This document shows positions 9,824 to 56,785 of a stretch of DNA of 64,000 nt, piece after piece. The DNA lies in contig JBAYIY010000007.1 of assembly GCA_041665365.1 (NCBI GenBank), forward strand, positions 11,103-75,102. The letters are read 5' to 3'. A model generated the notes under the pieces. That model had not been told where the DNA came from. It made no database searches and worked only from the letters and a program-made list of their open reading frames with translations. Each line of letters opens with the position of its first letter. Position 1 is the stretch's first letter. The stretch comes from Patescibacteria group bacterium. GTDB lineage: Bacteria > Patescibacteriota > Patescibacteriia > UBA9570. Made by a program: the position numbers and the translations under genes.

Positions 9824-12800
9824 TTATTGTTGTCCCATCAATGCACCCATATCTACTCCAGAGATTCTGACTAGTAATGGTAGTAGTTTTTGCAACTCAG
9901 GTATGCGATAAATGTCTTCAGGTTTTTCGGTAACTAAGGCCGCCATTACTTGTCTTTGTAAACGTTGTTGTAAGGCTTCAAAATTACCACCACTTGAGGC
10001 TAGGGCTTTGATTAAATAGTGAAAGTTTTTATCTGGTGTGCTATGTGGTACGCGCATAATACTGCCCACGAGATCTTTAAATAAATCAGCCGTCGTGGCA
10101 TTATCTCGTAATGCCTTATCAATTACTTCTTGCCAAGTTGCAATAGAACTTCTTTGGCCGGTATATTCATGTACAATTCTTGCCACAGGTTCAGTTTCAC
10201 TGCGCAGGCCTTGTTTAATTAAAATTAATTGTACTGTGAATTCAAGAAAATCTTGCTTCATTTTAGTTGTTTCGCACCGTCCGACACTGCCAGCGTCAAT
10301 TAAACCATAACGTTCATGACCCGGACGCAGATCAACAATACTATTGCCGGCATGAGGGTCGGCATGAAAAATTCCATCATCAGCCACTTGATACAACCAA
10401 TCAATGGCGGCACCGGCTTGAGCCGCTTCAACATCAAAAGTCATATATGGTTCAAGTTCTTTATCAGTTGTACCGGCTGTTTGCAGGCGAATAATCTCAG
10501 CCATAGATAAACCTTCATAAAATTCCTCAACAATCAACTGAATGCGTTGAGCCTCACCCTCACCGCGTTCACGTAAATACAATACCTGCGGCACGGACAC
10601 TGGTAAAGCTAACTTACCGACCTGAATTGTGGCACCACGTTTACGTATTTGCTGACCCAAATCACGGGCGGCGGATGCTTCTTTACCGAAATCAAGCTCA
10701 TCGGTCACTAGTTGGCGTATTTCCGGTACAAACCAATCTGGAATGTTATAACCTTCATGCTGTAAGGCAATAACAACACCATCCAGTACAGTCATATCTT
10801 CCGTAAAATTGCGCGCTGTGTTTGGTCGTTCCACTTTAAAAGCCACCGGTTCACCTTTAGCTGTGGTAGCCTTATGCACTTGTTTAATTGAAGCACTGCC
10901 TCTGCATTCACCAATTTCAGTTAGTTGCACACCGTCAGGACGCGCTTGAAATAACTGAGCGGTTCGAGCATAAGCAAAGACACCTCTTTTATTAAACGGT
11001 GCGCATTTATCTCGTAAGTTTCCTAAATCGGTGCGGATGGTTTCATCGCTAATCAAATCAGGCCGTTCTGATAACACCTGACCAACTTTTACACCCACCA
11101 CGCCTAAACCCTGCAGCACCATACGCAAAGCTTCACCGGGGCGTAACTTTGTTTCACGAATTTTTACTTCGCGTAATTCTTCCAAAAGGTTAACCAAGAA
11201 TTCTACGCGGCGCGCTGGTGAATAACCGGACATGACTTCCTGAAAAATAATTTTACCAATGGTTTGCAGTGGGGGATTATCGGCTAAAGCTTCCATGAAG
11301 ACTAATTCAAAAGTATCTTGAGAAAATTTTTGTAGAGCTTCTTTATCTGGTGTGTGGTTATGACCAACATAAATTGAAAAGGGAGCCACTTCACAGATGC
11401 CACCTTCACCCAATAACGCTGAATAAAAAATGGTACGGCGTTCTTCGGAACTTAACGCCCAAAAGGCGGTGACTTTATCTTGCTCATTAATGTTAAAAGT
11501 TTTACTGGCTAAATAGCGATCATCTGGTAGATCACCACCTAACAACCATAATAAAACCTCAGCCCGTTTGCTTCGATCACTGAACATGGCTAAATAATGT
11601 TTCATTGTTTCGGTAGCGGCAAAAGTCGGTGGTTCACCCGGTGGAAAATCTCCTGGATGATTAGCTTGATAGCGATAGGTTAAACGTTCTAACTCACTAC
11701 ATTGCACTTCGGTGGTGGCTAAGTCTGTCATGAGCGCAAACAAGATTGAATCACGATGATGAGTAGCCTTAGGGAAGCGTATTAATACGTGATCCAATAC
11801 AGCATGAAAGGCTTTATCATTCGCGGCCGCCACCATGGCAGGTAACGGTTCAGCTACATTGCCAAGTGTGGCGACACTGGCTTGGTGGTAATCAACGCGT
11901 AAATGATCAATTTCTAAATCAACGGCTTGACGTTCATACATTTCGCGCAAACCTCCCGTCAGAGACACCGCTGTATCCGTTAAGAAATCCGCGATGATTT
12001 TTTTTTGCGGCACGGAAATAAGATCACCCAAGCGTACTAAACCACTCACTTGAACGCTGGGGTATTTATCCATGTACGCATCTTCAACTATATTGGCACC
12101 AGCTACAACAAAATGATCACGCAAACTAATTGTGCGAGACGCTAAACGAATATTCGCTTTGGCCAGTTGATCCGGCGAACAAAACTTATTAACCACTTGC
12201 CACAATTCATGTTGGGCCAACACATGTAAAAAATAATCGCGAAACATACTTGGTTCGGGCATTAATTCCAGCACGTGAGCTCGAGCAGCCTTAAGTGTGT
12301 CTGGTGCTGACTCCACTCGTTCTAGTTCTGGCAGTAATACTCGTGCTGCATATTTAGCTTTATACATCGGGTCAAGCATAGTTTCGCCCTTATCAGTGCG
12401 TTCAACCGTATCGGAAAACAACAGTAACTCCGCACTGGTTGGGTAAGCCTCCGCGGCAACTTTTTGTTCTTGTTTAAGTTCCCTATGACGCTGTGTCCAA
12501 ACTTTATCACTTACGCTACGGTATTCATATGGATGAGAAGAAGTGTCCCAAGTATGTTTACGTACATTTTCAGCTTCATCCTCCGTTATTTTACCACGAT
12601 CTAATAACCATTTCAGTTTCCAGGCAATACCCGCTGCTGTACCTTCGAAATAGTTGGTTTTAACATACCCATTCACCACATCAGCTGAGCGGTTTACTTC
12701 GGCACCATCACCCAGCTCGGCTTTCATTAAAGCCATGAGTTGTTCAAGTTCAGCTGGTGTGCTGCCGAGACGATCAGCTCTTAACGCCAAACAAAAGTTA

Positions 12801-14179
12801 CGGTAAAAACCTGGCTTGAGTTGTTGCATTTTTTCTAAAGCATCTGGTTCTTGAACAACGGCTTCTAGAATGTGCTTCAGTCTTAATACACGGTTTTTCC
12901 AAAACCACTCTTTGGCCTGTTCTACGACATGTTCAAATGCGGGAGGCGGTGGAAGGTTATTTGGAATATCTTCAATACCATGTTTGTTGATATGTATGTT
13001 TTTAGCAATGGCGCGAGAAGTGATATATCCTTTTGGTGCATCTCGTATTATATCTACCGGATTATCTGGAATATATGGAAAAGCTTCTTTTACACTGACC
13101 GCTAAATCTGCTACGGCCGCTACATCAAAATCACCGCTGGCAACATAGAGCCTAATTAGCGTATCATCATTTATTCCAGCCTCAGCATATTGGGCTTTTA
13201 ATCGATCAGGCGTGAAACATAGTTTATGTAATAATAAAGGCCAAGATAAACGTTTATCTTGATTTTGAGCATCATCAGTAGTGACTAAACTAGTCGGTAA
13301 CAGGTGCAAAATATCTTCCTGGCAAACTCTAGCGTGTTCACTTAACAATGGATTAGCGATTAACCATTGTAGTTCGGCATAATGTTTTGTAAGAACCCGT
13401 AAGTGTTCTGGTGCTTCGGTTTGCCACCGTTTACCCCGTACACCAATAGCTGCTTCCATTAATGGCATCAGCGCAATTAACTCTTCACGACAAGTGTCAG
13501 GATTTTTTGTGTACTCATTGATCAAACCAAGTACATATGGTAAGGCTCCATCTGCTAACTGTAACGCGGCCGTTTCTTGACGAGTTGGTTTCATAGCAAA
13601 CTCGTTATTACGTTCCATTTGCTGAAAACGTTCAACTATAGTAGTGGTGTGTGGTGAACGTTCTTTTTGCAAGGTGCGGACAGTTTCTTTAATATTATGT
13701 TTAGAGAAATATGCCCTAAATAAGGTAATCGTATAACCAAGCTCGGGCGGTGTAGCGGCAATAAAACGTAACATTGGTAGCTCGGGATGCTCTGTGGCGT
13801 GAGTTTGACACCAGTTCTGTAAATGAAGATAGCCATTACCCATTTCTATAAAATCATTACTTTGTAATTGGGTAGTTAACTTTTGATAATTAGCTGGTGG
13901 CCAAACGTGTATTAAATCACGTATGGCATATTCAACTAAACGTTGCCACTGGGCTAATTCAATATCTCTGTTAGCATATCTTCTAGATTCATAAAAACCG
14001 TTCAGGCGACTATCAAAATTATAATCAGTGTATTCACGTTCATCGCTGGTCGTTAAATAGGCTGTTGTGTTATCTCCATAATAACGAGAAGGTATGGGTA
14101 GATCTTGTCCGAATACAACTCGAGCCGAGTGTAATCTATCATGATCGGTTGTATTAATACTATTACCTAGCTTCGTCAT
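9824..14179 (-). CDS. giant protein with C-terminal ABC1/UbiB-type atypical kinase domain
   Basis: 1451 aa. The last ~450 aa carry VKVGQVLSERPDL, ASIKQVHKA, VAFKVERPN, ELDFGKEA and FHADPHAGN..V.....GLIDAG. The N-terminal ~1000 aa are unrecognised. Confidence 0.8.
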   Translation of the reverse strand: MTKLGNSINTTDHDRLHSARVVFGQDLPIPSRYYGDNTTAYLTTSDEREYTDYNFDSRLNGFYESRRYANRDIELAQWQRLVEYAIRDLIHVWPPANYQKLTTQLQSNDFIEMGNGYLHLQNWCQTHATEHPELPMLRFIAATPPELGYTITLFRAYFSKHNIKETVRTLQKERSPHTTTIVERFQQMERNNEFAMKPTRQETAALQLADGALPYVLGLINEYTKNPDTCREELIALMPLMEAAIGVRGKRWQTEAPEHLRVLTKHYAELQWLIANPLLSEHARVCQEDILHLLPTSLVTTDDAQNQDKRLSWPLLLHKLCFTPDRLKAQYAEAGINDDTLIRLYVASGDFDVAAVADLAVSVKEAFPYIPDNPVDIIRDAPKGYITSRAIAKNIHINKHGIEDIPNNLPPPPAFEHVVEQAKEWFWKNRVLRLKHILEAVVQEPDALEKMQQLKPGFYRNFCLALRADRLGSTPAELEQLMALMKAELGDGAEVNRSADVVNGYVKTNYFEGTAAGIAWKLKWLLDRGKITEDEAENVRKHTWDTSSHPYEYRSVSDKVWTQRHRELKQEQKVAAEAYPTSAELLLFSDTVERTDKGETMLDPMYKAKYAARVLLPELERVESAPDTLKAARAHVLELMPEPSMFRDYFLHVLAQHELWQVVNKFCSPDQLAKANIRLASRTISLRDHFVVAGANIVEDAYMDKYPSVQVSGLVRLGDLISVPQKKIIADFLTDTAVSLTGGLREMYERQAVDLEIDHLRVDYHQASVATLGNVAEPLPAMVAAANDKAFHAVLDHVLIRFPKATHHRDSILFALMTDLATTEVQCSELERLTYRYQANHPGDFPPGEPPTFAATETMKHYLAMFSDRSKRAEVLLWLLGGDLPDDRYLASKTFNINEQDKVTAFWALSSEERRTIFYSALLGEGGICEVAPFSIYVGHNHTPDKEALQKFSQDTFELVFMEALADNPPLQTIGKIIFQEVMSGYSPARRVEFLVNLLEELREVKIRETKLRPGEALRMVLQGLGVVGVKVGQVLSERPDLISDETIRTDLGNLRDKCAPFNKRGVFAYARTAQLFQARPDGVQLTEIGECRGSASIKQVHKATTAKGEPVAFKVERPNTARNFTEDMTVLDGVVIALQHEGYNIPDWFVPEIRQLVTDELDFGKEASAARDLGQQIRKRGATIQVGKLALPVSVPQVLYLRERGEGEAQRIQLIVEEFYEGLSMAEIIRLQTAGTTDKELEPYMTFDVEAAQAGAAIDWLYQVADDGIFHADPHAGNSIVDLRPGHERYGLIDAGSVGRCETTKMKQDFLEFTVQLILIKQGLRSETEPVARIVHEYTGQRSSIATWQEVIDKALRDNATTADLFKDLVGSIMRVPHSTPDKNFHYLIKALASSGGNFEALQQRLQRQVMAALVTEKPEDIYRIPELQKLLPLLVRISGVDMGALMGQQ

Positions 14180-16292
14180 AGAAATTTATTTCGATGGGTC
14201 GACCACTGGCATCAGTAAACAAATCTCTCAATTCAGTTGCATCTTCGGCCACACCGGCGGCATACAATTCAGTCGCCAGACGATTCAATGGTCTTTGTAA
14301 TTCAGTCTCGTCAATGGTTGTTAAGTTTGATGGTTTTTTAAAAAAACGCGACATCAACCCAGCCAACCCGGTTGGCTTGTCCAACTCAACCAGAAAGTAA
14401 TTTTCGGGCAAACCAAGTTGCTCAGCCTTGTCTCTTAAAATGTTTACTATTTCTTGCAACCAGGCCGGCCGATTTGGTTCACTAAGGTTAATGCGTAAAC
14501 CTTCTTCCAACCACCGTTTAAACAAAACCCGTTTGATGTCTTTTTGATGAAAAAACGGTGGTTTATATACTGTTCCGGCCACAGTAGCCATGTGGGTTGA
14601 AGGTTTTTCTGGAATACCCCGAGCTAATTGCTGAATATAGGGGTGGTTCTGTAAAGTTTGTACAGTGCGCATGGCTGCCCCAATTTTACCGTGGTCTTGC
14701 GCGTGAATATTCAAACCTAGCGCACCGGTCATTACTTCAAGTAATGGTTTATGTAAATTATTAAAACGATCTACATAATCAAGGCGATCCCCTCGTGTAA
14801 AAGGTAGGTCACTTTGGGCATGTGTATAATCATACACCGGTAAAGTACGCATGACTGTTGGTACAACTTTCCACTGCTGCAAATCTTTTAAATCATCGAA
14901 TAGAATAACATCATGGGCAAATTTTGGATAAATAGTATCATGGGTGGCGCGGCGAAATAGCTCATCTTTAACGGTTTGTGTAACTGTAGTAACTCGTTCA
15001 CCTGTGACGTGTTCAATATGGTCTGGTGTAATAACCGCATCAAAATGATGTCGTAATAATTTTTGTAAACGTTGGTAAATTTTACCAAATCTGGTTTTGG
15101 ATAATCTTGTACCAGAACCAATCATGGCAGCATGTTGAAAAGGCTGAAAAGTTGATTCAAAAGAACGCGTCGGTGGTAATTGATACCCAGTGTTTATTGT
15201 AGCTGGTAGAGCTACTTGTTTTTCAGAGCGTGATAATCGCGCTTGTACAGTAGTGGCGAGTTCGGCTAACGATGATGGTATAGTTGGTAAGGCACTAGTC
15301 GTGATTGAATCAGTGGAAGTTTTGGGTGGTAACTCCTCGAGTAATTTTAAAGCGGCGTTTTTAAGGTCGATAGATTCTTGTCCGGTAAGTGTGTAGTGAA
15401 ATTCAAAACCGCGTAACCAGCGCTGGGCTAAATTAGCTATAAATGTGTCTTTATGTTGTTTAATCTTCGCTTTTTTATCAAAATGTGATTCTATTTTCCA
15501 GTATTTTAATGCGGCTGGATTAGTGTGATCAAATAGATCTTCCAATTTTGTAAATGGCTCAGTGGGTGGGAGTTCTGGAGGTACTAAAACAGCATGTTGA
15601 CGATGGAATTTAATCGCATCTGTCATTATAGTGCGATTAATACTGTCGGGATCATGCAATGTAGTATCTTCTGAAGTTGGGTTTTGGACTAAATCTTCTA
15701 AAACTTTACCGCGATAATCATTATCTGGTGAACGAGGTTGGGAAAACATTCTTGACTCAATGGCTAGTGGATTAATCAATGAACAATATAGACTTTCGCC
15801 CGATAAGGCTAAATTCGCTTCGTAAAGAATAGCGTTGTGATAACCGAATCGGTCATGTTCTAGTGCATCATACACGGCTGCCAGAGCAGTGCGCATATCA
15901 AGCTGTAATCGAAATACTTCTAAAGCCATTAAACCATCTCGAAAAGTGGCGCGAGGATTATTTTCTATATCATCGAGTATATTATTCCAATCTTCAGCAG
16001 TGCGAGCTACTTGTAATTGTTGTAACAGTTTTTCTCGAGCTAAATCTTTGGCGTCTTCTAGTGCCGCATCACTAAACAGTTGCTGCGGTTGATCGGCATT
16101 ATACACAATGCGTTCTGGGCGATGATACTCTTCTTCCAGTGCGGTTAAACGGTTCTGTGTGATGGGGTGAGTTTTTGTAAAATAATGTTCAATCACTTGT
16201 TTCCAGTTTGGGCGACCAGTGGCTTGCAGTAAGACACGTTGTAACTCAATGGCGGCTTGTGGATTATAGCCGGCTAAATCGGCGCCTTCCAT
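14163..16292 (-). CDS. large uncharacterised protein; N-terminus is the distal half of an M48-like peptidase domain
   Basis: 709-aa ORF. It begins MEGADLAGYNPQAAIELQRVL, which resembles the ExxAD...AGYDP third-ligand region of M48. It lies in frame with 16404..17069 across a single TAA. Confidence 0.6.
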   Translation of the reverse strand: MEGADLAGYNPQAAIELQRVLLQATGRPNWKQVIEHYFTKTHPITQNRLTALEEEYHRPERIVYNADQPQQLFSDAALEDAKDLAREKLLQQLQVARTAEDWNNILDDIENNPRATFRDGLMALEVFRLQLDMRTALAAVYDALEHDRFGYHNAILYEANLALSGESLYCSLINPLAIESRMFSQPRSPDNDYRGKVLEDLVQNPTSEDTTLHDPDSINRTIMTDAIKFHRQHAVLVPPELPPTEPFTKLEDLFDHTNPAALKYWKIESHFDKKAKIKQHKDTFIANLAQRWLRGFEFHYTLTGQESIDLKNAALKLLEELPPKTSTDSITTSALPTIPSSLAELATTVQARLSRSEKQVALPATINTGYQLPPTRSFESTFQPFQHAAMIGSGTRLSKTRFGKIYQRLQKLLRHHFDAVITPDHIEHVTGERVTTVTQTVKDELFRRATHDTIYPKFAHDVILFDDLKDLQQWKVVPTVMRTLPVYDYTHAQSDLPFTRGDRLDYVDRFNNLHKPLLEVMTGALGLNIHAQDHGKIGAAMRTVQTLQNHPYIQQLARGIPEKPSTHMATVAGTVYKPPFFHQKDIKRVLFKRWLEEGLRINLSEPNRPAWLQEIVNILRDKAEQLGLPENYFLVELDKPTGLAGLMSRFFKKPSNLTTIDETELQRPLNRLATELYAAGVAEDATELRDLFTDASGRPIEINFYDEAR

Positions 16293-16403
16293 GCCGGCTA
16301 AATCGGCATCATATTCAAAACGGACACTTTCATCAGTTGGTCTATCTGGTTTATCAGGTTGATATTTTTTTTGTTGGAGATGACGTAACTCATGTCCAAT
16401 AAT

Positions 16404-17069
16404 TTAAGCCAAATGATCTTTGGTAAAGACCTTTTTTTGTTCGACAAACATTTTATGCAACTGTGTAATGAACCCAATATTAACAAACACGTGCACTGGT
16501 TCGGTTGAAGGAACGGTGTAATCTTCATCTAATTTTTCAGTACGTAAAACATAAGCATTCATGTCTGTACTACGCGTTAACTCCAATAAAACTGGGCGCC
16601 GAAAACCCATCGCCTCAGACACATTGGCGACAATCTCACCAACTTCTTGATATATGACAGATTCACGTTGTTCAGCTTCTGTTAAAGTTTCAGTGGTCGT
16701 ACGTTTATATTCAAGTTGTAATCGTGTCCGCAAACGGCGGGTGGCTTCTTGTACAGGACGACGGCGTTCTAAAAACTCCTGGCGTTCCGGAACGGATTCA
16801 TCGCCATAATTAAGACGTTCACGATCAATCTCATAACGTAAGGCTCTAATCCACTCCACTGAGTGCGTGGGGTCTTTAAATTCTATTGTAGTTGAATCAC
16901 TTGTAGATTGTGTAAGTTGTTCCAGTGCGACACCGGCTAATTCACTAGTACGGGTATCAGACATCATCAGTCTGGTTAATATCAACAACGTGCGATCATC
17001 ACGCGAGAGCTCTAAAGTTAGTTCAGTACTCTCGCGTTGCTCGCCTCGTTTAGGTTTTATTTCAGGCAT
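16404..17069 (-). CDS. N-terminal fragment of the interrupted M48-like giant gene
   Basis: 221 aa ending ...TKDHLA-TAA. The next in-frame codons read IIGHELRH (HExxH). Confidence 0.55.
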   Translation of the reverse strand: MPEIKPKRGEQRESTELTLELSRDDRTLLILTRLMMSDTRTSELAGVALEQLTQSTSDSTTIEFKDPTHSVEWIRALRYEIDRERLNYGDESVPERQEFLERRRPVQEATRRLRTRLQLEYKRTTTETLTEAEQRESVIYQEVGEIVANVSEAMGFRRPVLLELTRSTDMNAYVLRTEKLDEDYTVPSTEPVHVFVNIGFITQLHKMFVEQKKVFTKDHLA

Positions 17070-17075
17070 GTGATG

Positions 17076-17609
17076 TTATACCAGATGCAACTTGTGTTCG
17101 ATTACCGTCACACGTTGATTGAGCTCGGTCACCTCAAACCGGTAAGCCACGTTGTCTTGGCGTAATTTAAGTTCATCCTGACCTTGTTCAAGATTAGATA
17201 ATCTATAATCAACTCGATCGAAGCGTTCATCGACCGAATCAAAACCCAGTTTAGTGGCCATGGCTAAATCATCTACCGTAGTAGTTAAATTATCCATTCT
17301 TGTGGATAAGCTATCTACTTTACCATCAACATGATCCACTTTAGTAGATAAACTATCAACCTTTGTATCTAAAATATCTGTTTTCGTCGATAAACCATCA
17401 ACTTTGGTATCTAAACTATCCATCCGTGTGGATAGAGTGTCAACTTTAGTGGTTAATTTATCCGTTCTCGTGGATAAACTATCTACAGTTTTAGTTAATC
17501 CATCCGTTTTTGTGGATGAAATACCAACTATATTAACTAAACTACTGACGATTGCTGTCAAACCGTCCATTTTGTCTGCTAGATTGTCTAGCGTGATTGT
17601 TTTCTTCAT
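17076..17609 (-). CDS. heptad-repeat coiled-coil protein
   Basis: ORF track gives 17076..17651; the Met at 17609 (MKKTITLDNL) is more plausible. At least 11 consecutive heptads of the form [VTM]D.L.TK. Confidence 0.6.
   Translation of the reverse strand: MKKTITLDNLADKMDGLTAIVSSLVNIVGISSTKTDGLTKTVDSLSTRTDKLTTKVDTLSTRMDSLDTKVDGLSTKTDILDTKVDSLSTKVDHVDGKVDSLSTRMDNLTTTVDDLAMATKLGFDSVDERFDRVDYRLSNLEQGQDELKLRQDNVAYRFEVTELNQRVTVIEHKLHLV
17265..17513. repeat. 21-bp (heptad-encoding) tandem periodicity inside the coiled-coil gene
   Basis: Repeating gtggataaactatc/tttagt... units are visible on the + strand. Confidence 0.7.
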
Positions 17610-17655
17610 AAAGTGTTTCCCAATACTTTGGCGGCGCTTTTGTAAACACACTAGC

Positions 17656-39978: not shown

Positions 39979-40008
39979 AAACGAGTTCAAATAAATGGAC
40001 TCGTTTTA
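39979..40008 (+). terminator. hairpin terminator after the Wzz-like gene
   Basis: Stem acgagt/actcgt with a 12-nt loop, followed by TTTTAGTATT. Confidence 0.45.
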
Positions 40009-40011
40009 GTA

Positions 40012-40040
40012 TTGACAAAAAGTAGAAATAATGCTAAATT
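40012..40040 (+). promoter_or_regulatory. sigma70-like promoter opening the high-GC cassette array
   Basis: TTGACA (40012), 17 nt spacer, TAAATT (40035). Confidence 0.5.
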
Positions 40041-40064
40041 GTTCAGTTATTTTTGGGGACATAT

Positions 40065-40213
40065 GTACCCCCTAGCCCCCTTGCAGGGGGTAAAAGATAA
40101 CAATAAACTTATGCACCTTTTCACTATGAACAGTTAGTACGAACGGGGATACCATGAGTGTACCCCCAACCCTCATCTCTTATCCCCTTGAAAGGGGGAC
40201 AGAGGGGGTAAAT
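40065..40213. repeat. family-1 palindromic element, split/expanded copy
   Basis: gtaccccc-tag-cccccttgcaggggg ... about 70 nt insert ... gtaccccc-aac...ccccttgaaaggggg-acaga-gggggtaaa. Confidence 0.75.
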
Positions 40214-40760
40214 TCCGGAGTGGGTAAACACCAGTTAGTCTCACACGAATCAGATGAGAACACCATCAAAGTGAAGGTGTTGCCATGTGGTTCGTCTGTA
40301 TAGCCGGTGATCAGCAATGATCGCTGGCTGTCATGAATCACTCAACCCGAAAGGGTTAAGCACATTTACAATCTACTTTCCTACTTCGACTCGTTTCACT
40401 CGCTCAGTATAAATTTATTGAGCATGTAAGCTTGTCGAATGATCATCGGTAGCGATATACAGACCTCATCAATATACATACTTCTTTGAGTACACCACCC
40501 TAGCCCTCCTATTCTAGGAGGGAATAAGAATAAATTTTCTTACTCCCTTCCTACAATAGGAAGGGCCGGGGATGGTGTATTCCGGAGAGGGATACGTATC
40601 CGGAGAGGTCTCCATATCGCTACCGATGAAACCAACAATATCGGAGCTCGGTTCCCCAACGGGGAGACATTCGTCGCGGCAATTTCGCCGTGATGTATGT
40701 CCACCCGGACGTGAACCGGGACCGATCGACTTCACTCGACTACATGGAGCTACGAAAACA
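40204..40760 (+). promoter_or_regulatory. conserved structured 5' leader, copy A
   Basis: A 91-nt block (40204-40294) is identical to 42545-42635. Block 40443-40625 is near-identical to 42712-42917. Long-range stem cggtagcgatatacagacctc / gaggtctccatatcgctaccg. Confidence 0.6.
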
Positions 40761-42236
40761 ATGACGTTCAAGAACATCCTCGCGATCTTCACGTTCATCT
40801 TCGCCATTCTCGCCCCGGCGACCGTCGCCCAGGCCCAGGAGAAGTGGGAGGATCCAAAAGTGGGTCCGTTCACTCTCGGGTACTGGTCGAAGCTCGATGC
40901 CGGCGCGACCAGTGTCGACGCCGCGGCGGCCGGGATCATGAAGAACTTCAAGGAGTGTGAGAGCAAGTACGGCCAGGGTGGGTGCTACATCCAGTTCGAA
41001 TCATCTACTGACATCAACCGCTGGGACAACACCAAGAATGGCAAGGACGACGCATTGCACGGTGGGCTCGGAGAGGGACGCACCGCGGTCCTCAAGGACG
41101 CGGTGTTTTCTCGATCCGCAAGGATCAAGGAATACTCGGTCACCGACTACCCCCACCACGGTGCGAAAGATGGATGGCGGTACTCCTGGGCGACGATCAT
41201 GCCCAAGGAAGGTGCCTCCGCGATGCCGAAGGTGTCGGCCGACCCCAACAAGAGGTGGAGCTTCCTCACGGAAGTGCTCCTCCGCCAGACCGATAACCTC
41301 TGTCCCACGATGGTGCGGGCGGACGCGGTCACGCGAACCTACACCCTGCAGGGTCAAACCTGCGGGTGCAGCACGTTCGATGCAGTGCCCAGCACCCGCC
41401 AGTTGGAGGTCAGGAACGACCTCACCTGGTTGGGAAAGGTCGTCGCGGACCGCTCGAAGTGGTCCGACGCGAAGACTTTGACCTGGACGGAAGTCCGGGC
41501 CGCTCTCGAGGAGGGCACCGAGTCCCGCGTCATCGAAGTCGACGCGCTCGGCGATCCGTCCTCCACGCCCGACGGTCTGTCCGTTGAGTTCGTGGAGTCG
41601 GAGACCCTGCTCCGGGTGCAGTTCCCGGACAGGTGCTCGCCGATCCTCGACGCCGCGAAGGCAGAGGCCGACGCCAAGGCGCAAGCCAAGGCTCAGGCCG
41701 ACGCCGACGCCCGCGAGTCCGCAAGGCTCGCGGCGTACAACACCGACTTCATGGTCGGTGGGTCGGTCGCGGGTACGGGGACGTTCATCCCCAAGTACAG
41801 CCCCTTCAACCCGGGCAGGGGTTTCGACCTCGCCGGGCACGTCGAGGGCGGTGCGGTGATCGGCGGCGGGTACGGCGCGTGGGCTTTCGGGCTCGGCGTC
41901 GGCCCGTCGTGGGACCCGAACTGCCTGACCCCCGGCCAGGTTGACCTCGAGGCCTTCACCGGCCCGTGGCTCAACAGGCAGGGGAAGGTCGGGTTCTCCG
42001 CCTTCCTGAACGGATCTGCGGGCTTCACCATGTACAACGGTGAAGTCCTCACCCCGCGGTACCGCCTGGGTCTCAACCTGGGCGTGCCCGTGCAGGTGGA
42101 GCGTGAGCTCTACCTGGTTCCCCAGATCGGCCCCGTGGTCGACTGGGTGAGCGGGCAGGTGCAGGCGACCGGCGGCTTCGCGATCACCGAGCGAGTCGGG
42201 ATCGCGGGTGGTCTGCGGATCATCAAGACGTTCTGA
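40761..42236 (+). CDS. high-GC exported protein with C-terminal beta-barrel-like domain (foreign-type)
   Basis: ORF track gives 40572..42236. The true start is likely the ATG at 40761, after GGAG, because it begins the signal peptide MTFKNILAIFTFIFAILAPATVAQA. Strong GC3 bias. Gly/aromatic-rich last ~170 aa, ending in Phe. Confidence 0.7.
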   Translation: MTFKNILAIFTFIFAILAPATVAQAQEKWEDPKVGPFTLGYWSKLDAGATSVDAAAAGIMKNFKECESKYGQGGCYIQFESSTDINRWDNTKNGKDDALHGGLGEGRTAVLKDAVFSRSARIKEYSVTDYPHHGAKDGWRYSWATIMPKEGASAMPKVSADPNKRWSFLTEVLLRQTDNLCPTMVRADAVTRTYTLQGQTCGCSTFDAVPSTRQLEVRNDLTWLGKVVADRSKWSDAKTLTWTEVRAALEEGTESRVIEVDALGDPSSTPDGLSVEFVESETLLRVQFPDRCSPILDAAKAEADAKAQAKAQADADARESARLAAYNTDFMVGGSVAGTGTFIPKYSPFNPGRGFDLAGHVEGGAVIGGGYGAWAFGLGVGPSWDPNCLTPGQVDLEAFTGPWLNRQGKVGFSAFLNGSAGFTMYNGEVLTPRYRLGLNLGVPVQVERELYLVPQIGPVVDWVSGQVQATGGFAITERVGIAGGLRIIKTF

Positions 42237-42429
42237 TCTGAGTAGGAAAGTAGGTTAGGGTGAGGGGGTATAGGTTGTGTCGCAAGTCTGCGAACAATCT
42301 GTACCTCCTCCCCACCTACACAAATATGAATAAGGGATAATGTCTCTCGAGGTAGTGACCTCGGTAAACATGGTTCCTGATTCAACTGAATAAGGAATCG
42401 GTCTTTAAAAATAATCTATGGTTAAAACC

Positions 42430-42553
42430 TTTACCCCCTCTGTCCCCCTCTCGCCTCTGCGAAGCCGCTACGGCGGAGCACGGTGCAGGGGGATAAGAAA
42501 AGAAGTTTTAAAAATATCTTCTCATAGCCCCCTGCAAGGGGGTTGGGGGTAAA
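42430..42553. repeat. family-1 palindromic element (inverted orientation) with a GC-rich insert in one hairpin loop
   Basis: tttaccccc-tctgt-ccccct[38-nt insert]caggggg-ataagaaaag...-ccccctgcaaggggg-tt-gggggtaaa. Confidence 0.8.
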
Positions 42554-43053
42554 TTCCGGAGTGGGTAAACACCAGTTAGTCTCACACGAATCAGATGAGA
42601 ACACCATCAAAGTGAAGGTGTTGCCATGTGGTTCGAAGAGTCATAGTCGATCAGCAATGATCGCTTGTGACCACGAAACACAATTTGTTCTTTAAAATCT
42701 TCTGCTAAGAATCATCGGTAGCGATATACAGACCTCATCAAGCATACACACTTCTTTGAGTACACCACCCTAGCCCCCCGCCTTGCCGGCGTGGCAGGTC
42801 CTATTCTAGGAGGGAATAAGAATAAATTTTCTTACTCCCTTCCTACAATAGGAAGGGCCGGGGATGGTGTATTCCGGAGAGGGATACGTATCCGGAGAGG
42901 TCTCCATATCGCTACCGGTGAAAACAATACCGGCGTGCTCGGTTCCCAGAATGGGAAAGATGCGGTTGTGGGAATGTTCCCATGACATGTGTTCTACCCT
43001 GTTCAAAAGAACCGGGACCGATCGACTACACAATTTCGACTGGAGCTACGACA
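42545..43053 (+). promoter_or_regulatory. conserved structured 5' leader, copy B
   Basis: See copy A. Same block order, with the middle segment shortened and a 22-nt GC-rich insert at about 42786. Confidence 0.6.
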
Positions 43054-43839
43054 ATGACGCTCAAAAACATCGTGATCTCGCTCGCGCTCGTCGTCGGTTG
43101 CAAGATGGGCCCGGTGCAGGAATGTGACTCGGACTCGGACTGCTTCGAAACCAACACCAACTCCGATACCGACACCGACGCGGACACGGACACGGACGCC
43201 GACGCTGATACGGACACGGACTCCGACACCGATACCACCGAAACCGACGTGGACAACGACGGCGACGGGTACACCGTGGACGGCGGGGACTGCAACGACG
43301 CCAACGCCAGCGTCCACCCGGGCGCGACCGAGTACTGCAACGGCGTCGACGACGACTGCAACGGGTCGATCGACGACAATGACACCGACGGGGACGGGTA
43401 CGTCTCCGACGACTGCACGTCATATGACGGAGTCGCCGGCCTCCCCGGTGGTGATTGCGCGGATTCGATCGGGACGACGGCGTCCTGGTCGAACAGCGAT
43501 ATCCACCCGGGGCAGTTGGAAATGTACGACTGGATCGACACTAACTGCGACGGCACCGCCGACGATGGATGTAGTATGTTGTGCGACACCGACGGCGACG
43601 GATACGAGAATTTCGAACAGGGCAGCGGGCCCGAGTTCGAGTGCGTGGACGCGTCGTTCGTGGCGGATCAGTCCGCCTCGAGCAGCCCGTTCGATACGAC
43701 GATCTCGTGGACGTATGCCTCCAGCGGAGTGGTTTACTCCGGTGTGAACGCAACGTGCGAAATGACGGCGGCCCAGCAGGTCGATCCGTCAACCTGGAGG
43801 ACGATCACGTCCATCCAGGCCGAGATGGCCACCCGCTAA
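43054..43839 (+). CDS. high-GC lipoprotein with (D-T)n tract and MopE-type Cys-rich motifs (foreign-type)
   Basis: Start at the ATG at 43054 after GGAG. Lipobox LALVVGC. DTDTDADTDTDADADTDTDSDTDT tract. DGDGYTVDGGDCNDANASVHPGATEYCNGVDDDCNGSIDD. Confidence 0.7.
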   Translation: MTLKNIVISLALVVGCKMGPVQECDSDSDCFETNTNSDTDTDADTDTDADADTDTDSDTDTTETDVDNDGDGYTVDGGDCNDANASVHPGATEYCNGVDDDCNGSIDDNDTDGDGYVSDDCTSYDGVAGLPGGDCADSIGTTASWSNSDIHPGQLEMYDWIDTNCDGTADDGCSMLCDTDGDGYENFEQGSGPEFECVDASFVADQSASSSPFDTTISWTYASSGVVYSGVNATCEMTAAQQVDPSTWRTITSIQAEMATR

Positions 43840-44107
43840 AGGTGGTTATCTCAACCGGAGATTGGTAGTTCTCCGGGCACAGACATAAGTGCAAACAAAA
43901 AACCAAAATCTTCTAGCAGAAGATAGATCAGCTCGGGAGGTGGCATGAGTAGAGCACACAAACGCTCCTCGCCACCTCCCACCTTCGCTCTAAGAAGAGC
44001 TTCGGCGGGCAAGCCCACCTAATAATGTATCCAGAATCAAATAGTATTATGGATAGATTAATGGGAAATAGTAATTAACAAATAGGAGTTAGGAAATAAA
44101 TAGGGGG

Positions 44108-45987: not shown

Positions 45988-46025
45988 ATCCAGTAGAGAC
46001 ATGCCATGGCATGTCTCTACTGGAT
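45988..46025. repeat. perfect 38-bp palindrome (family 2 variant)
   Basis: atccagtagagacatgcca|tggcatgtctctactggat. Confidence 0.9.
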
Positions 46026-46029
46026 TGAT

Positions 46030-46092
46030 AAAAAAAAGAGGCCCCGGGAGATTGTCATGTACATGCGTAGTACAGACAACCTCAACCGGGGC
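46030..46092 (-). terminator. long-hairpin rho-independent terminator of the third high-GC gene
   Basis: Minus strand: gccccgg...gttgtc-tgtac...gtaca-tgacaat...ccggggc followed by T8. Confidence 0.6.
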
Positions 46093-46103
46093 GTCCAAAT
46101 TCT

Positions 46104-54077: not shown

Positions 54078-54441
54078 ATTCTGTGTTGTCAGTGGTTTTA
54101 ACACGGTTGTTGACTTGGGTTCGTATTGGATTTTAACGAGATATTTTTCGTGGTGGGCACATCATCTAGTATTGGCTCATATTGTGTCTTTGATTATCAC
54201 CATGGTACATAGTTATGCGTGGAATTCTCTATGGGTTTTTGCCAAAGAGCATACCAACGATATCGTGTCCTTTATCAAGTTTGTGATTGTATCGATGTCT
54301 GGTTTGGTAATGAGTAGTGTTTTGTTTTGGGTAATGCTAGAAATTCACATTAATGATTGGGTTGTAAAGTTAAGTATGATGTTCTTTTTATTTGTGTGGA
54401 ATTTTGCCGGAGATAAGTGGTGGGTGTATACTAAAAAATAA
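54043..54441 (+). CDS. GtrA-like membrane protein
   Basis: 132 aa, 4 TM. FIKFCVVSGFNTVVDLG N-terminal motif. Confidence 0.7.
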   Translation: MRLPINLHQFIKFCVVSGFNTVVDLGSYWILTRYFSWWAHHLVLAHIVSLIITMVHSYAWNSLWVFAKEHTNDIVSFIKFVIVSMSGLVMSSVLFWVMLEIHINDWVVKLSMMFFLFVWNFAGDKWWVYTKK

Positions 54442-54442
54442 T

Positions 54443-55471
54443 ATGGTTAAACACGCAATTTTCGATAAAAAAAATATCTTAGTAGTCGGTGGGGCTGGGT
54501 TTATTGGTTCACATCTGTGTGACGAGTTGGTGAAACAAAATAAAGTCATCTGTGTGGATAATTTCGTCACTGGCCACGTGGAAAACATTGAGCATTTATT
54601 AGGTAATGCCAACTTTATTTTTATTAAGCATGATATTAATGAACCGTTAGATTTAACCAAGTTTCCTGAATTAGAAAAATTTCAAGTACAATTTCAAGGT
54701 GTTCAGGAAATATTTAATTTAGCCGTACCGACTAATAAACATACTTTTGAAGAGAATATTTTTAATACTTTATTGGCTAATTCTTATGCCGTCAGAAATA
54801 CTTTGGAAATAGCGAAACAGTTTCAGGCCAAATATTTATTCGCGTCATCGTCGTCAGTGTACGGTGATCCAATTGATGGACAAGATCTGTTTTCCGAGGA
54901 CTATTGGGGGTTTGTTGATCCAACTGGTCCACGCAGTTGTTATAATGAAGGCAAACGGTTTGGCGAGAGTTTTGTGACTAGTTTTGGTAAGCAATTTGGG
55001 ATTGATGTGAAAATCGGTCGCATCTTTAATACCTATGGTCCACGCATGGCGCTTAATTCTGGTCGCATGATACCTGATTTTGTGACTGAAGCGGCGGCGG
55101 GACACGATGTCTTAATTTATGGCCACGGAGCCGAAACTGATACCTATTGTTTCGTGAATGATATTATTGATGGCTTGTTAAAATTAATGAGCTACAAAGT
55201 AGCCGGACCAATCAATTTAGGTAGCCCAGAACGTTATACGATGTTGGATATTGCCAAAAAGATTATTACGTTTACAGAGTCAAAAGCGCAGATTAAATTT
55301 ACTGATGCGCTACCATTTTTAACAACACCTGGCGTGGCTGATATTAGTAAAGCCAAACAACAGTTGGGTTGGTTTCCGGTAGTGGCTTTAGATGAAGGTT
55401 TACGTCAAACTGTAGCGGATATGTTAGGTAGTCGAGTTTTAACTTATGCTCGAGTCGGTGGATTGACATAG
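54443..55471 (+). CDS. UDP-glucuronate decarboxylase / NAD-dependent sugar epimerase-dehydratase
   Basis: Start moved to MVKHAIF. VVGGAGFIGSHL, SSSSVYG and YNEGKRFGE (YxxxK). Confidence 0.8.
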   Translation: MVKHAIFDKKNILVVGGAGFIGSHLCDELVKQNKVICVDNFVTGHVENIEHLLGNANFIFIKHDINEPLDLTKFPELEKFQVQFQGVQEIFNLAVPTNKHTFEENIFNTLLANSYAVRNTLEIAKQFQAKYLFASSSSVYGDPIDGQDLFSEDYWGFVDPTGPRSCYNEGKRFGESFVTSFGKQFGIDVKIGRIFNTYGPRMALNSGRMIPDFVTEAAAGHDVLIYGHGAETDTYCFVNDIIDGLLKLMSYKVAGPINLGSPERYTMLDIAKKIITFTESKAQIKFTDALPFLTTPGVADISKAKQQLGWFPVVALDEGLRQTVADMLGSRVLTYARVGGLT

Positions 55472-55498: not shown

Positions 55499-56785
55499 AT
55501 GAATATTAGTGTTATCGGTACCGGTTATGTTGGTTTGGTCACAGGAGCCTGTTTAGCTGAGGCTGGCCATCAAGTAACTTGTCTGGATATAAATCAGGAA
55601 AAAATCAGTGGTTTACAACGTGGTATTATTCCTATTTTTGAACCTGGTCTTGAAGCAGTTGTACAAAGCAATGTGCAATTAGAACGCTTAAAATTTACGA
55701 CTGATTTAGCTGACGCCATACCGCAAAGTGAAGTTGTCATCATTGCCGTTGGTACGCCATCTGCCCCTGACGGTACAGCTGATTTGCAGTATGTATTTGC
55801 GGCGGCTGAGGGCATTGCCAAGAAAATGCAACGTTACACAGTGATAGTCACAAAATCAACTGTGCCAGTTGGAACGGGCAAAAAAGTTGAAGCGATAATA
55901 AAACAACATTATACCGGAGATTTTGCCTATGCCTCTTGTCCGGAATTTTTGCGCGAAGGCTGCGCCGTGGATGATTTTTTCTCTCCGGATCGAGTAGTAA
56001 TTGGAGTACGTAATGATCAGGCCAGTGCTGTCATGCTCGATATGTTTAAGCCAATTCGCGGGCAGAAAGTTGTTACCACGGTGGAGTCGGCCGAATTGAT
56101 TAAATATGCTTCAAATGCTTTTTTAGCCACGAAGATTTCTTTTATCAACGAAATTGCTCAGGTGTGTGAGCGCATGGGAGCAGACATTGAGGAGGTGGCT
56201 TATGGGGTTGGGTTAGATCACCGGATTGGTCCTAAATTCTTAAAAGCCGGTATTGGTTGGGGTGGGTCATGTTTTCCAAAGGATGTGTCGGCGCTCGGAC
56301 AAATGGCTGGTGCCTCAGGCTATGATTTTAGGTTATTGCAATCGGTTATTGAAGTGAATCATAATCAACGCAAGCATTTTATTGCTCGGGTGCGTGAACA
56401 TATTGGCGAAATAGATCATAAAAAAATTGGTGTATTGGGGTTGGCTTTTAAAGACAATACCGATGATATTCGAGAGTCAGCCGCGATCGATGTGATTCAA
56501 CAGTTAGTAGCCGCCGGTGTTACCGTAACCGCCTTTGATTATCAAGCCACCGAAGCCGCCCGGCGTGTTTTACCTGATACGGTCAAGTTTGCGAGTGACC
56601 CATATGAGGTGGCTGCTCAAGCCGATGCGGTTTTGGTATTAACAGAATGGAAAGAGTTCAAAGAGCTTGATTGGGTAAAGATAAAAGATAGTATGATTCA
56701 ACCGGTGGTGTTTGATGGCCGAAATTTACTCAAACCGAAAACGATGATTGAATTGGGTTTCCATTATTATTCCATTGGTCGATGA
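55499..56785 (+). CDS. ugd: UDP-glucose 6-dehydrogenase
   Basis: VIGTGYVGLV, GGSCFPKD catalytic Cys, GLAFK.NTDD.RES. Confidence 0.9.
   Translation: MNISVIGTGYVGLVTGACLAEAGHQVTCLDINQEKISGLQRGIIPIFEPGLEAVVQSNVQLERLKFTTDLADAIPQSEVVIIAVGTPSAPDGTADLQYVFAAAEGIAKKMQRYTVIVTKSTVPVGTGKKVEAIIKQHYTGDFAYASCPEFLREGCAVDDFFSPDRVVIGVRNDQASAVMLDMFKPIRGQKVVTTVESAELIKYASNAFLATKISFINEIAQVCERMGADIEEVAYGVGLDHRIGPKFLKAGIGWGGSCFPKDVSALGQMAGASGYDFRLLQSVIEVNHNQRKHFIARVREHIGEIDHKKIGVLGLAFKDNTDDIRESAAIDVIQQLVAAGVTVTAFDYQATEAARRVLPDTVKFASDPYEVAAQADAVLVLTEWKEFKELDWVKIKDSMIQPVVFDGRNLLKPKTMIELGFHYYSIGR

What the first reader, a model, noticed from the sequence alone, without database searches (positions are those of the whole stretch)
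16290..16410. Single in-frame TAA three codons upstream of the HExxH motif splits an M48-like giant gene
ORF 16404..17069 ends ...TKDHLA-TAA. Continuing in the same frame gives IIGHELRHLQQKKYQPDKPDRPTDESVRFEYDADLAGMEGADLAGYNPQAAIELQ, which runs into ORF 14163..16292. I verified the frame: (16406-16292)=114=38x3. The motifs HELRH and E..AD......AGY.P match the zinc-binding regions of M48 peptidases. As annotated, neither fragment contains the HExxH, because there is no start codon between the stop and the Met at 16292. The intact protein would be about 968 aa. Possible explanations are a recent nonsense mutation (for example TTA to TAA), a sequencing error, strain heterogeneity, or stop-codon readthrough.
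Basis: partly seen in the sequence, partly recalled or inferred. Interest (0 to 1): 0.6.

Follow-up and report, generated by a model that had tools for sequence, protein, structure and literature searches.

The report
Nonsense-interrupted M48 protease gene
A 968-codon zinc-protease gene in an uncultured Patescibacteria genome is cut by one real TAA stop four codons before its catalytic motif, most likely a young inactivating mutation and so an ordinary event.

Summary
On the minus strand, frame 17069→14163 is 969 codons long and has one internal stop, TAA at 16406..16404. It lies four codons before HELRH, inside a Pfam-significant M48 peptidase domain.

- **Relatives:** Seventeen full-length relatives (898-1005 aa) are uninterrupted. 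The syntenic one has a Ser codon at this site.
- **Genetic code:** TAA is the commonest ordinary terminator in the window (26 of 49 long ORFs), so recoding is unlikely.
- **Reproducibility:** The same TAA occurs in at least four public assemblies, which argues against an assembly error.
- **Age:** All 51 family-invariant residues downstream of the stop are kept, so the lesion is young.
- **Structure:** In a model of the orthologue, the break lies inside the active-site helix. That is a poor place for a functional split.

Best reading: a recent nonsense mutation that inactivates the protease.

Three other lineages carry independent lesions in this gene. One is a +1 frameshift only three codons away. 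By my estimate, a pair of lesions that close among four would arise by chance about 5% of the time.

The gene always sits upstream of a ~1450-aa ABC1/UbiB-like gene. Elsewhere the two are fused into single proteins of 1750-2450 aa, so one half of a two-part module is broken here.

Interest is low.

The parts
16404..16406 (-). In-frame TAA, codon 222 of the 969-codon frame. It is the only internal stop.
   Evidence: An identical TAA is in L003, a separate JGI scaffold, and in the NCBI, ENA and Logan assemblies.
16404..17069 (-). N-terminal fragment ORF (221 aa plus stop). It holds the N-terminal helical region and the β-strand half of the M48 domain, and ends ...FTKDHLA.
   Evidence: It is NCBI MFA6475333.1, 'hypothetical protein WCV88_04005'. 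It aligns to residues 1-221 of intact relatives.
14163..16403 (-). Open frame downstream of the stop (746 codons plus stop). It holds the HExxH helix, the Glu-ligand helix and about 650 aa of mainly helical C-terminal region.
   Evidence: It is NCBI MFA6475332.1, 'M48 family metalloprotease'. All 51 family-invariant columns in this part are kept.
16401..16403 (-). ATT directly after the TAA. It and the ATT after it are the only near-cognate start codons I saw when reading the codons before the HExxH motif. NCBI annotates this one as the start of the 746-aa product.
   Evidence: P0013 begins MIGHELRH and is 746 aa, which equals window 16403..14166.
16380..16394 (-). HELRH (codons 226-230): two zinc-binding His residues and the catalytic Glu of the M48 motif.
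   Evidence: H226, E227 and H230 are invariant in the family.
16302..16316 (-). EYDAD (codons 252-256): the segment that carries the presumed third zinc ligand, Glu.
   Evidence: Invariant E252, Y253, D254 and D256. It aligns to the EN.AD segment of the solved M48 peptidase 3C37 and to Pfam M48 positions 138-185.
16290..16292 (-). First canonical start (ATG, Met260) after the stop. A product starting here (709 aa) lacks HExxH.
   Evidence: This is what the JGI, ENA and Logan gene calls use (P0001).
16119..16652 (-). Approximate extent of the M48 catalytic domain (codons ~140-317), which the stop bisects.
   Evidence: In P0004, Pfam M48 profile positions 4-79 match residues 140-234. In the joined window protein, positions 138-185 match residues 250-314. 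The model of orthologue P0002 has strands 160-197, active-site helix 217-232 and helix 246-267. Foldseek matches BepA 6AIT and M48 3C37.
9824..14179 (-). Partner gene: an intact 1451-aa ABC1/UbiB-like atypical-kinase protein. It overlaps the end of the M48-like frame by 17 nt.
   Evidence: Pfam ABC1, 91.2 bits. It lies directly downstream of the M48-like gene in 8 of 8 related loci that have room for it. The two are fused into one polypeptide in P0033, P0034, P0036 and P0049.

Best explanation
This is a young nonsense mutation in a gene that is normally one ~970-aa cytoplasmic M48-type zinc metalloprotease with a long helical C-terminal region.

**What is shown**
- The mutation turned codon 222 into TAA. 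That codon lies inside the active-site helix, four codons before the first zinc-binding His.
- TAA is the genome's most used terminator.

**What is inferred**
- Ribosomes release a 221-aa N-terminal fragment that carries only the β-strand half of the catalytic domain.
- The remaining 746 codons (HExxH, the Glu ligand and the helical region) are then either not translated, or translated weakly from the ATT next to the stop, or translated from Met260. The last of these gives a product without HExxH.
- Either way the protease is lost or severely crippled.
- The ABC1/UbiB-like partner gene overlaps the 3' end of this frame, so its translationally coupled expression is probably reduced too.
- The lesion is fixed, or at least dominant, in the sampled population. 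It is too recent for further decay to show.
For: **The lesion**
- There is one stop in 969 codons and no frameshift.

**Relatives are intact**
- Ten relatives from the first search (898-992 aa, 27-58% identity) and seven more full-length representatives (931-1005 aa) are continuous through the site. They have S, A, G, I, V or F at that column.
- The syntenic orthologue P0002 (M48-like → ABC1-like → BipA, the same order as in the window) is intact at 992 aa.
- tblastn against nine GTDB-genome loci gives single continuous matches across the site.

**The stop is a real terminator**
- 26 of 49 long ORFs in the window end in TAA, 14 in TGA and 9 in TAG.

**The stop is reproducible**
- It is present in an ENA MEGAHIT contig of 85,638 bp, an NCBI MAG contig of 80,614 bp, a JGI scaffold of 6,492 bp and a Logan contig.

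**The stop bisects the catalytic domain**
- Pfam M48 rises from 25.1 to 37.9 bits when the two parts are joined.
- In the AlphaFold model of P0002 (pLDDT 76, pTM 0.72), residue 222 lies in helix 217-232, which carries HExxH.
- The model matches BepA and the M48 peptidase 3C37.

**The lesion is young**
- All 51 family-invariant columns downstream of the stop are retained. With 17 intact members as the reference, 37 of 38 invariant columns are retained.

**No recoding signal**
- The 141 nt around and after the stop fold no better than shuffles (z = -1.4).
- The closest relative has AGC (Ser) at the site.

**The gene is often damaged elsewhere**
- Three other lineages carry independent lesions at codons ~225, ~330 and 544.
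- A second assembly of the window's own lineage has an extra 1-nt deletion in the same gene.
Against: - No reads were available, so a minority or consensus artefact, or a polymorphism with an intact allele, cannot be excluded.
- The assemblies that share the TAA may derive from the same or related samples.
- The complete absence of decay downstream fits a still-functional split as well as it fits a very recent lesion.
- A second lineage (L018, L019, L020) is broken only three codons away. Its downstream frame has a TTG directly before GHELAH. The window has an ATT directly after its stop. This is what a tolerated two-piece enzyme with coupled re-initiation would look like.
- The genome uses almost no Shine-Dalgarno motifs, so the lack of one before the ATT says nothing.
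- The partner ABC1-like gene is fully intact.
Confidence: 0.75

Rival explanations
1. The split is a tolerated gene fission that gives a two-piece enzyme. After terminating at TAA, the ribosome re-initiates at the adjacent ATT. The 221-aa N-fragment and the 746-aa C-fragment, which carries HExxH and the Glu ligand, then assemble without a covalent link into an active or partly active protease.
For: - ATT directly abuts the stop, and NCBI annotates it as the start.
- All invariant residues on both sides are kept.
- An independent lineage is split three codons away, with a TTG start available just before GHELAH and overlapping the upstream stop.
- A third lineage has TAA followed immediately by ATG at codon 544.
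- The family occurs both as separate genes and as fusions, so its gene boundaries are plastic.
Against: - Both breaks lie inside the predicted active-site helix (residues 217-232). They fall between the invariant DHLA and GHELxH residues, not in a loop or linker.
- ATT is a very inefficient initiator in the bacteria that have been studied (general knowledge).
- Seventeen full-length relatives are unsplit.
- The split lineages are each represented only by near-identical contigs, so there is no evidence that a split state has persisted through divergence.
- With four lesions known in the family, I estimate about a 5% chance that some pair falls within four codons (six pairs, each about 9 in 970). 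That is suggestive but not compelling.
Confidence: 0.1
2. The TAA is not the true state of the organism's genome. It could be a sequencing or assembly consensus error, or one allele of a mixed population in which an intact allele also exists.
For: - The sequence is a metagenome-assembled contig, and no reads could be inspected.
- Another assembly of the same lineage differs by a 1-nt homopolymer indel and an N gap in this same gene, so the assemblies are not error-free.
- The assemblies that share the TAA may come from the same reads.
Against: - The TAA is identical in four assemblies made by different pipelines (ENA MEGAHIT, NCBI MAG, JGI scaffold, Logan).
- The change is a base substitution in non-repetitive sequence, not a homopolymer indel.
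- Everything else in 6.5 kb is identical between the two assemblies compared.
Confidence: 0.08
3. The stop is programmed or tolerated for readthrough. TAA would be partly decoded as a sense codon, by a suppressor tRNA or by context-dependent readthrough, giving a regulated low level of full-length protease.
For: - Frame continuity is perfect and there is no downstream decay.
- Another family member also carries a single in-frame TAA followed by A.
Against: - TAA ends 26 of 49 long ORFs in the window.
- The stop is absent from all close and distant relatives at this site.
- There is no significant RNA structure downstream.
- The only tRNA in the window is a normal tRNA-Trp(CCA).
- I know of no case of programmed UAA readthrough in bacteria (general knowledge).
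Confidence: 0.03

Closest known systems
E. coli BepA (YfgC), an M48 protease with a C-terminal TPR domain (PDB 6AIT)
   Same: - It is the best structural match to the model of the intact orthologue (Foldseek E = 9e-5).
- Both have an M48 HExxH...E catalytic domain followed by a helical-repeat region in one chain.
   Different: - BepA is about 490 aa and periplasmic, and acts on outer-membrane proteins.
- This family is about 970 aa. Read directly, its charged N-terminus does not look like a signal peptide.
- This family has an extra ~140-aa N-terminal region and about 650 aa of C-terminal helices. It is genetically tied to an ABC1-like protein.
- Sequence identity is 12-15%.
- The window copy is interrupted.
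Geobacter sulfurreducens M48 peptidase Q74D82 (PDB 3C37); Pfam PF01435 Peptidase_M48
   Same: - The HExxH motif and the downstream E..AD...AGY.P...THP segment align.
- The Pfam score is above the gathering threshold.
- The TM-score normalised to the target is 0.58.
   Different: - The sequence match is weak (E = 0.064 against the PDB sequences).
- 3C37 is a minimal 253-aa single-domain enzyme.
- The window gene's domain is cut in two by a stop.
Ordinary bacterial nonsense pseudogenes (a single premature stop in an otherwise intact ORF)
   Same: - There is a single substitution-type stop, with intact orthologues and no other lesion.
- The stop codon is used normally elsewhere in the genome.
   Different: - NCBI annotates it as two live genes, one with an ATT start, rather than as a pseudogene.
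- A second lineage is broken three codons away.
Plastoglobule and cyanoglobule ABC1K kinases together with the M48 protease PGM48 / sll1280
   Same: ABC1-family atypical kinases and an M48 metalloprotease occur together as components of one compartment (PMC12223511, read). That parallels the M48-ABC1 gene pair and fusions seen here.
   Different: - This is a literature parallel only.
- Those proteins are separate, much smaller and lipid-droplet associated.
- No orthology was tested, and Patescibacteria have no such compartment known to me.

Membership tests
Peptidase family M48 (Pfam PF01435 / MEROPS M48) | Sequence score above the curated Pfam gathering threshold | tested here: met
   The downstream part alone scores 25.1 bits and the joined protein 37.9 bits, against a cut-off of 20.3. 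Relatives score 34-50 bits.
Peptidase family M48 (Pfam PF01435 / MEROPS M48) | HExxH zinc-binding and catalytic motif | tested here: met
   HELRH at codons 226-230 (16380..16394), invariant across the family. It lies downstream of the stop.
Peptidase family M48 (Pfam PF01435 / MEROPS M48) | Third zinc ligand (Glu) on a following helix, in the E..AD segment | tested here: met
   The invariant EYDAD at 252-256 aligns with the equivalent segment of 3C37 and with Pfam positions 138-185. The ligand role is inferred from the alignment.
Peptidase family M48 (Pfam PF01435 / MEROPS M48) | M48 (gluzincin-type) fold | tested here: met
   Tested on the intact orthologue P0002, not on the window protein. 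The model has pLDDT 76. Foldseek matches BepA 6AIT at E = 9e-5 and 3C37 at a target-normalised TM-score of 0.58.
Peptidase family M48 (Pfam PF01435 / MEROPS M48) | Catalytic domain encoded as one uninterrupted polypeptide | tested here: not met
   TAA at codon 222 separates the β-strand half from the HExxH helix. The window holds an interrupted copy of an M48-family gene, not an intact member.
Peptidase family M48 (Pfam PF01435 / MEROPS M48) | Zinc-dependent proteolytic activity | not testable with these tools
   This needs biochemistry on the repaired and the split proteins.
Nonsense pseudogene (recent loss-of-function allele) | Orthologues encode one continuous protein across the site | tested here: met
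   Seventeen full-length relatives and nine genome loci are continuous. The syntenic orthologue is intact.
Nonsense pseudogene (recent loss-of-function allele) | The codon is a genuine terminator in this genome | tested here: met
   TAA ends 26 of 49 long ORFs, and TGA and TAG are also used.
Nonsense pseudogene (recent loss-of-function allele) | The lesion is real and not an assembly artefact | tested here: inconclusive
   The same TAA is in four assemblies from different pipelines. Whether the read sets are independent is unknown, and no reads were seen.
Nonsense pseudogene (recent loss-of-function allele) | Loss of the full-length product or of function | not testable with these tools
   This needs proteomics, ribosome profiling or activity assays.
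Programmed stop-codon readthrough or recoding | The stop is conserved at the site among relatives | tested here: not met
   Relatives have S, A, G, I, V or F at this column. The closest has AGC.
Programmed stop-codon readthrough or recoding | A recoding signal (stable downstream RNA structure), or reassignment of the codon | tested here: not met
   The fold z-score is -1.4. TAA is the main terminator.
Functional split gene (gene fission with coupled re-initiation) | A usable start codon for the downstream part that retains the catalytic motif | tested here: inconclusive
   Only ATT (twice) is available before HExxH, and the first ATG, GTG or TTG is Met260. NCBI uses the ATT. The genome lacks Shine-Dalgarno motifs, so no ribosome-binding-site test is possible.
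Functional split gene (gene fission with coupled re-initiation) | The break lies at a domain boundary or loop | tested here: not met
   The break is inside the predicted active-site helix 217-232, between the invariant DHLA and GHELxH residues.
Functional split gene (gene fission with coupled re-initiation) | The split state persists through sequence divergence under purifying selection | tested here: inconclusive
   Only near-identical copies of each split lineage exist: at least 99.6% identity for the window lineage and 99.96-100% for L018, L019 and L020. There is no power for a selection test.

The most novel reading that the evidence does not exclude
The two breaks found within four codons of each other, just before HExxH, are not a coincidence. 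One is the TAA here and the other a +1 frameshift in the L018 lineage. Each has a near-cognate or alternative start codon (ATT, TTG) sitting at the junction. On this reading the M48-ABC1 module tolerates, or even favours, cutting the protease at its active-site helix. That would yield either a two-piece enzyme made by termination and re-initiation, or a protease whose dose is throttled in this way. It would be a recurrent, convergent gene fission inside a catalytic domain.
Probability: 0.08. Interest if true: 0.45.

Novelty: new member of a known kind. Interest (0 to 1): 0.2.

Why it matters
On its own the finding matters little. It is one more young nonsense allele in a metagenome-assembled genome. 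Its practical lesson is for annotation. The gene callers behind the JGI, ENA and Logan records produce two 'genes', neither holding the catalytic motif. NCBI rescues the motif with an ATT start instead of flagging a pseudogene.

Two things make it slightly more useful.

- It drew attention to an uncharacterised module that is conserved in Patescibacteria. The module is a ~970-aa M48-like protease always followed by a ~1450-aa ABC1/UbiB-like protein, and the two are fused into single proteins of 1750-2450 aa in other lineages. This is a Rosetta-stone link between a protease and an atypical kinase or ATPase, in organisms I would not expect to make ubiquinone (general knowledge, not tested here).
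- The protease gene is damaged independently in at least four lineages while the partner gene stays open in the sequence available. That suggests the protease half is dispensable or costly.

If the split were functional, it would be an unusual fission inside an active-site helix.

Tried and rejected
**Recoding of TAA.** Rejected. TAA is the commonest terminator in the window. The only tRNA in the window is tRNA-Trp(CCA), and Rfam finds nothing else.

**Downstream RNA signal.** None found.

**Internal promoter or terminator near the stop.** The scan found no more sites than shuffled sequence gives, 15 against 14.0 ± 3.5.

**Shine-Dalgarno test for re-initiation.** Uninformative. Almost no gene in the window has such a motif.

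**Looking for an intact allele of the same strain.**
- A metagenome-wide scan with a degenerate pattern across the site found only L004 and one chance hit, L005. L004 is a relative at 67.7% amino-acid identity with AGC at the site (identity).
- The collection does not hold the window's own population.

**GTDB genome scan.** It returned no relative closer than 45% identity.

**Second word-indexed protein search, with the alignment as query.** It returned the same 11 proteins and added nothing.

**Low-coverage contig.** P0028 and P0031, which looked like further split fragments, lie on a contig with 1× coverage in which every gene is fragmented (L021). They were discarded.

**Selection tests (dN/dS) after the split.** Not possible. 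Copies of each split lineage are at least 99.6% identical, and the nearest intact relatives are too far away (57-68% amino-acid identity).

**Another split gene in the window.** The same-frame ORF pair 54392..55471 and 55499..56785 turned out to be two distinct complete enzymes.

**Literature.** Searches found no description of the Patescibacteria M48-ABC1 module.
Full report
**1. The observation**

Read on the minus strand, window 16430→16380 is ...ACC AAA GAT CAT TTG GCT TAA ATT ATT GGA CAT GAG TTA CGT CAT..., which is T K D H L A * I I G H E L R H.

Translating 17069→14163 in one frame gives 969 codons. The only internal stop is at codon 222, TAA at 16406..16404.

- 16404..17069 (221 aa);
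- 14163..16292 (709 aa), which starts at the first ATG, GTG or TTG after the stop.

The coordinates, the frame arithmetic and the motifs are all correct.

**2. It is an M48-type gene, and the stop cuts through the catalytic domain**

- The 746 codons after the stop score 25.1 bits against Pfam Peptidase_M48, whose gathering score is 20.3.
- Joining the two parts raises this to 37.9 bits.
- In relative P0004, the Pfam profile's N-terminal half (positions 4-79) matches residues 140-234. So the domain runs from about residue 140 to about 317, with the stop in the middle.
- A search of PDB sequences finds only the M48 peptidase 3C37, weakly (E = 0.064). The alignment runs through the E..AD...AGYNP...THP segment.
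- An AlphaFold model of the intact orthologue P0002 has mean pLDDT 76 and pTM 0.72. It shows strands at 160-165, 172-174 and 192-197, a helix at 198-210, a helix at 217-232 that carries HExxH, and a helix at 246-267 that carries the conserved Glu.
- Foldseek's best PDB matches are E. coli BepA (6AIT, E = 9e-5) and 3C37 (target-normalised TM-score 0.58).
- Residue 222 therefore lies inside the active-site helix, between the invariant D-H-L-A and G-H-E-L-x-H residues.

**3. Relatives are single, uninterrupted proteins**

- The word-indexed search found ten relatives of 898-992 aa (27-58% identity), all covering both parts. It also found the window's own 709-aa fragment.
- An exhaustive HMMER search of 1.84 billion representatives found 24 proteins at E ≤ 1e-30. 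Among its hits are seven more full-length members of 931-1005 aa, each with HE..H at about residue 218-242.
- At the stop column these relatives have S, A, G, I, V or F.
- P0002 lies in the same gene order as the window (M48-like → ABC1-like → BipA) and is intact.
- tblastn against nine loci from GTDB genomes gives continuous matches across the site. These loci are from Kerfeldbacteria, Uhrbacteria, 'Patescibacteria group' and two MAGs labelled Gammaproteobacteria.
- The closest relative found by the DNA scan (L004, 67.7% amino-acid identity) has AGC (Ser) at the site.
- TCA→TAA is the only single-step change from a residue actually observed at this column. The ancestral codon cannot be fixed.

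**4. It is neither recoding nor, probably, an artefact**

- Among 49 non-overlapping long ORFs in the window, 26 end in TAA, 14 in TGA and 9 in TAG. The standard code applies, and TAA is the preferred terminator.
- The RNA around and after the stop folds no better than shuffles (z = -1.4).
- Exact-sequence look-ups show the 221-aa and 709-aa or 746-aa products in four places:
  - an ENA MEGAHIT contig (85,638 bp);
  - an NCBI Patescibacteria MAG contig (80,614 bp; MFA6475333.1 and MFA6475332.1);
  - JGI/GEM records;
  - a Logan contig.
- A separately assembled JGI scaffold (L003, sample 3300037810) aligns to window 17052..10547. It carries the identical ...GCT TAA ATT... sequence.
- The lesion is a substitution in non-repetitive sequence.
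- I could not see reads and do not know how independent the samples are. Error or polymorphism therefore keeps a small probability.

**5. Age and consequence**

- All 51 columns downstream of the stop that are invariant in ten relatives are kept in the window sequence, as are 27 of 28 upstream.
- Against 17 intact members, the window sequence keeps 37 of 38 invariant columns.
- There is no second lesion in the window copy. So the mutation is recent, or the parts are still under selection.
- L003 has an additional 1-nt deletion in an A6 run at window 14339, which shifts the frame of the last ~55 codons. This may be a second real lesion or a homopolymer error.
- Expected consequence (inference): a 221-aa fragment is released, and the HExxH-bearing part is translated little or not at all.
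- The ABC1-like gene overlaps the 3' end of this frame by 17 nt. Its translational coupling would therefore be weakened.

**6. Could the split be functional?**

NCBI annotates the downstream piece from the ATT directly after the TAA (P0013 begins MIGHELRH and is 746 aa).

The exhaustive search also uncovered other damaged family members.
- **L018, L019, L020** (groundwater metagenomes). The sequence reads GTC CTT GGG TCA TGA in frame 0 and TTG GGT CAT GAA CTT GCG CAT (L G H E L A H) in frame +1. This is a 1-nt insertion one codon before the first His. A TTG is available as a start right at the junction.
- **L023, L024.** An in-frame TAA at codon 544 is followed directly by ATG.
- **L022.** A frameshift lies in a T8 run at about codon 330.
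- A 1×-coverage contig (L021) was discarded.

All the split lineages keep the family's invariant residues.

If lesions fell uniformly, two of them would lie within four codons in a 970-codon gene about 1% of the time. With four lesions known there are six pairs, so the chance that some pair is that close is about 5%. That is suggestive but not compelling.

Three points argue against a functional split:
- both breaks lie inside the catalytic helix rather than in a loop;
- ATT is a poor initiator (general knowledge);
- no split state is seen to persist through divergence, because copies within each split lineage are at least 99.6% identical.

The genome has almost no Shine-Dalgarno motifs, so that test is uninformative.

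I put the functional-split reading at about 10%.

**7. Context: one half of a two-part module**

- The gene directly downstream (9824..14179) encodes an intact 1451-aa protein with an ABC1/UbiB atypical-kinase domain near its C-terminus. It scores 91.2 bits in Pfam. Its NCBIfam UbiB score is far below the equivalog cut-off, so it is not UbiB itself.
- This gene follows the M48-like gene in 8 of 8 related loci with enough sequence and in the look-up loci.
- More distant hits of 1750-2450 aa carry the M48 domain at the N-terminus and the ABC1 domain at the C-terminus of one polypeptide. This is a Rosetta-stone fusion, so the two proteins very likely work together.
- I found no paper describing this module.
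- The only parallel is that ABC1K kinases and an M48 protease occur together on plastoglobules and cyanoglobules (PMC12223511). That is a lead, not a test.

**8. Verdict**

- The most likely explanation is an ordinary, recent nonsense mutation that inactivates an M48-like protease in a Patescibacteria population (confidence about 0.75).
- It is a new instance of a well-known kind of event, and of low interest.
- The modestly interesting by-products are the uncharacterised M48-ABC1 module and the recurrent damage to its protease half, including a second break three codons away.

Noticed in passing
window 9824..17069 (-); related loci L006-L012, L014-L017, L022; proteins P0033, P0034, P0036, P0049: The ~970-aa M48-like gene is always followed by a ~1400-1480-aa ABC1/UbiB-like gene (8 of 8 loci with room). 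In other lineages the two are fused into single proteins of 1750-2450 aa, with M48 at the N-terminus and ABC1 at the C-terminus. This is an undescribed protease/atypical-kinase module, seen mainly in Patescibacteria.
   Followed up: partly
L018:1900-1970 (also L019, L020): An independent lineage has a 1-nt insertion (GG→GGG) one codon before the first His of HExxH. This is only three codons from the window's stop. A TTG start is available in the new frame directly before GHELAH.
   Followed up: yes
L023:4990-5010 (also L024); L022:590-640: Two further damaged family members were found. One has an in-frame TAA at codon 544 followed immediately by ATG (543 aa + 427 aa). The other has a frameshift in a T8 run at about codon 330. 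That makes four damaged lineages against 17 intact representatives.
   Followed up: partly
window 14339 (A6 run in ...TTTTTTTAAAAAACC...), compared with L003:2700: Another assembly of the same lineage (JGI 3300037810) lacks one A here, which shifts the frame of the last ~55 codons of the same gene. It is either a second real lesion or a homopolymer error. L003 also has a 10-N scaffold gap at window 16549-16571.
   Followed up: partly
window 40000-44000 and 46000-48000: GC content is 0.53-0.58 here against about 0.40 elsewhere, and there is no rRNA. The ORFs include a 554-aa protein with an internal signal-peptide-like segment and no Pfam match, and a 285-aa protein with Cu-binding_MopE motifs. 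An imperfect 6-24-nt repeat (GACACC...) lies at 43146-43276. Many spurious overlapping ORFs occur on both strands. This may be a foreign island or may simply reflect the composition of secreted-protein genes.
   Followed up: partly
whole window, gene starts: Almost no gene has a Shine-Dalgarno-like motif. Several genes have a TATAAT-like box 7-15 nt upstream of the ATG. Examples are 16404..17069 (ggTATAACatcacATG), 29734, 36815, 39088 and 44563. This suggests leaderless or very short-leader mRNAs.
   Followed up: no
window 54392..55471 and 55499..56785 (+): These two long ORFs are in the same frame, separated by a single TAG. They looked like another split gene. They are two complete, different enzymes: an NAD-dependent epimerase/dehydratase and a UDP-glucose/GDP-mannose dehydrogenase.
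   Followed up: yes
window 17076..17651 (-): A 191-aa coiled-coil protein with no specific family lies directly upstream. By chance it is in the same frame as the M48-like gene, so three consecutive ORFs share one frame. Relatives start at the Met at 17069, so it is a separate gene.
   Followed up: partly
L007 (CAYIMB010000009.1) and L014 (CAYYFM010000042.1): Two MAGs labelled 'uncultured Gammaproteobacteria' carry this otherwise Patescibacteria-type M48-ABC1 pair. This may reflect mis-binning, mislabelling or horizontal transfer.
   Followed up: no
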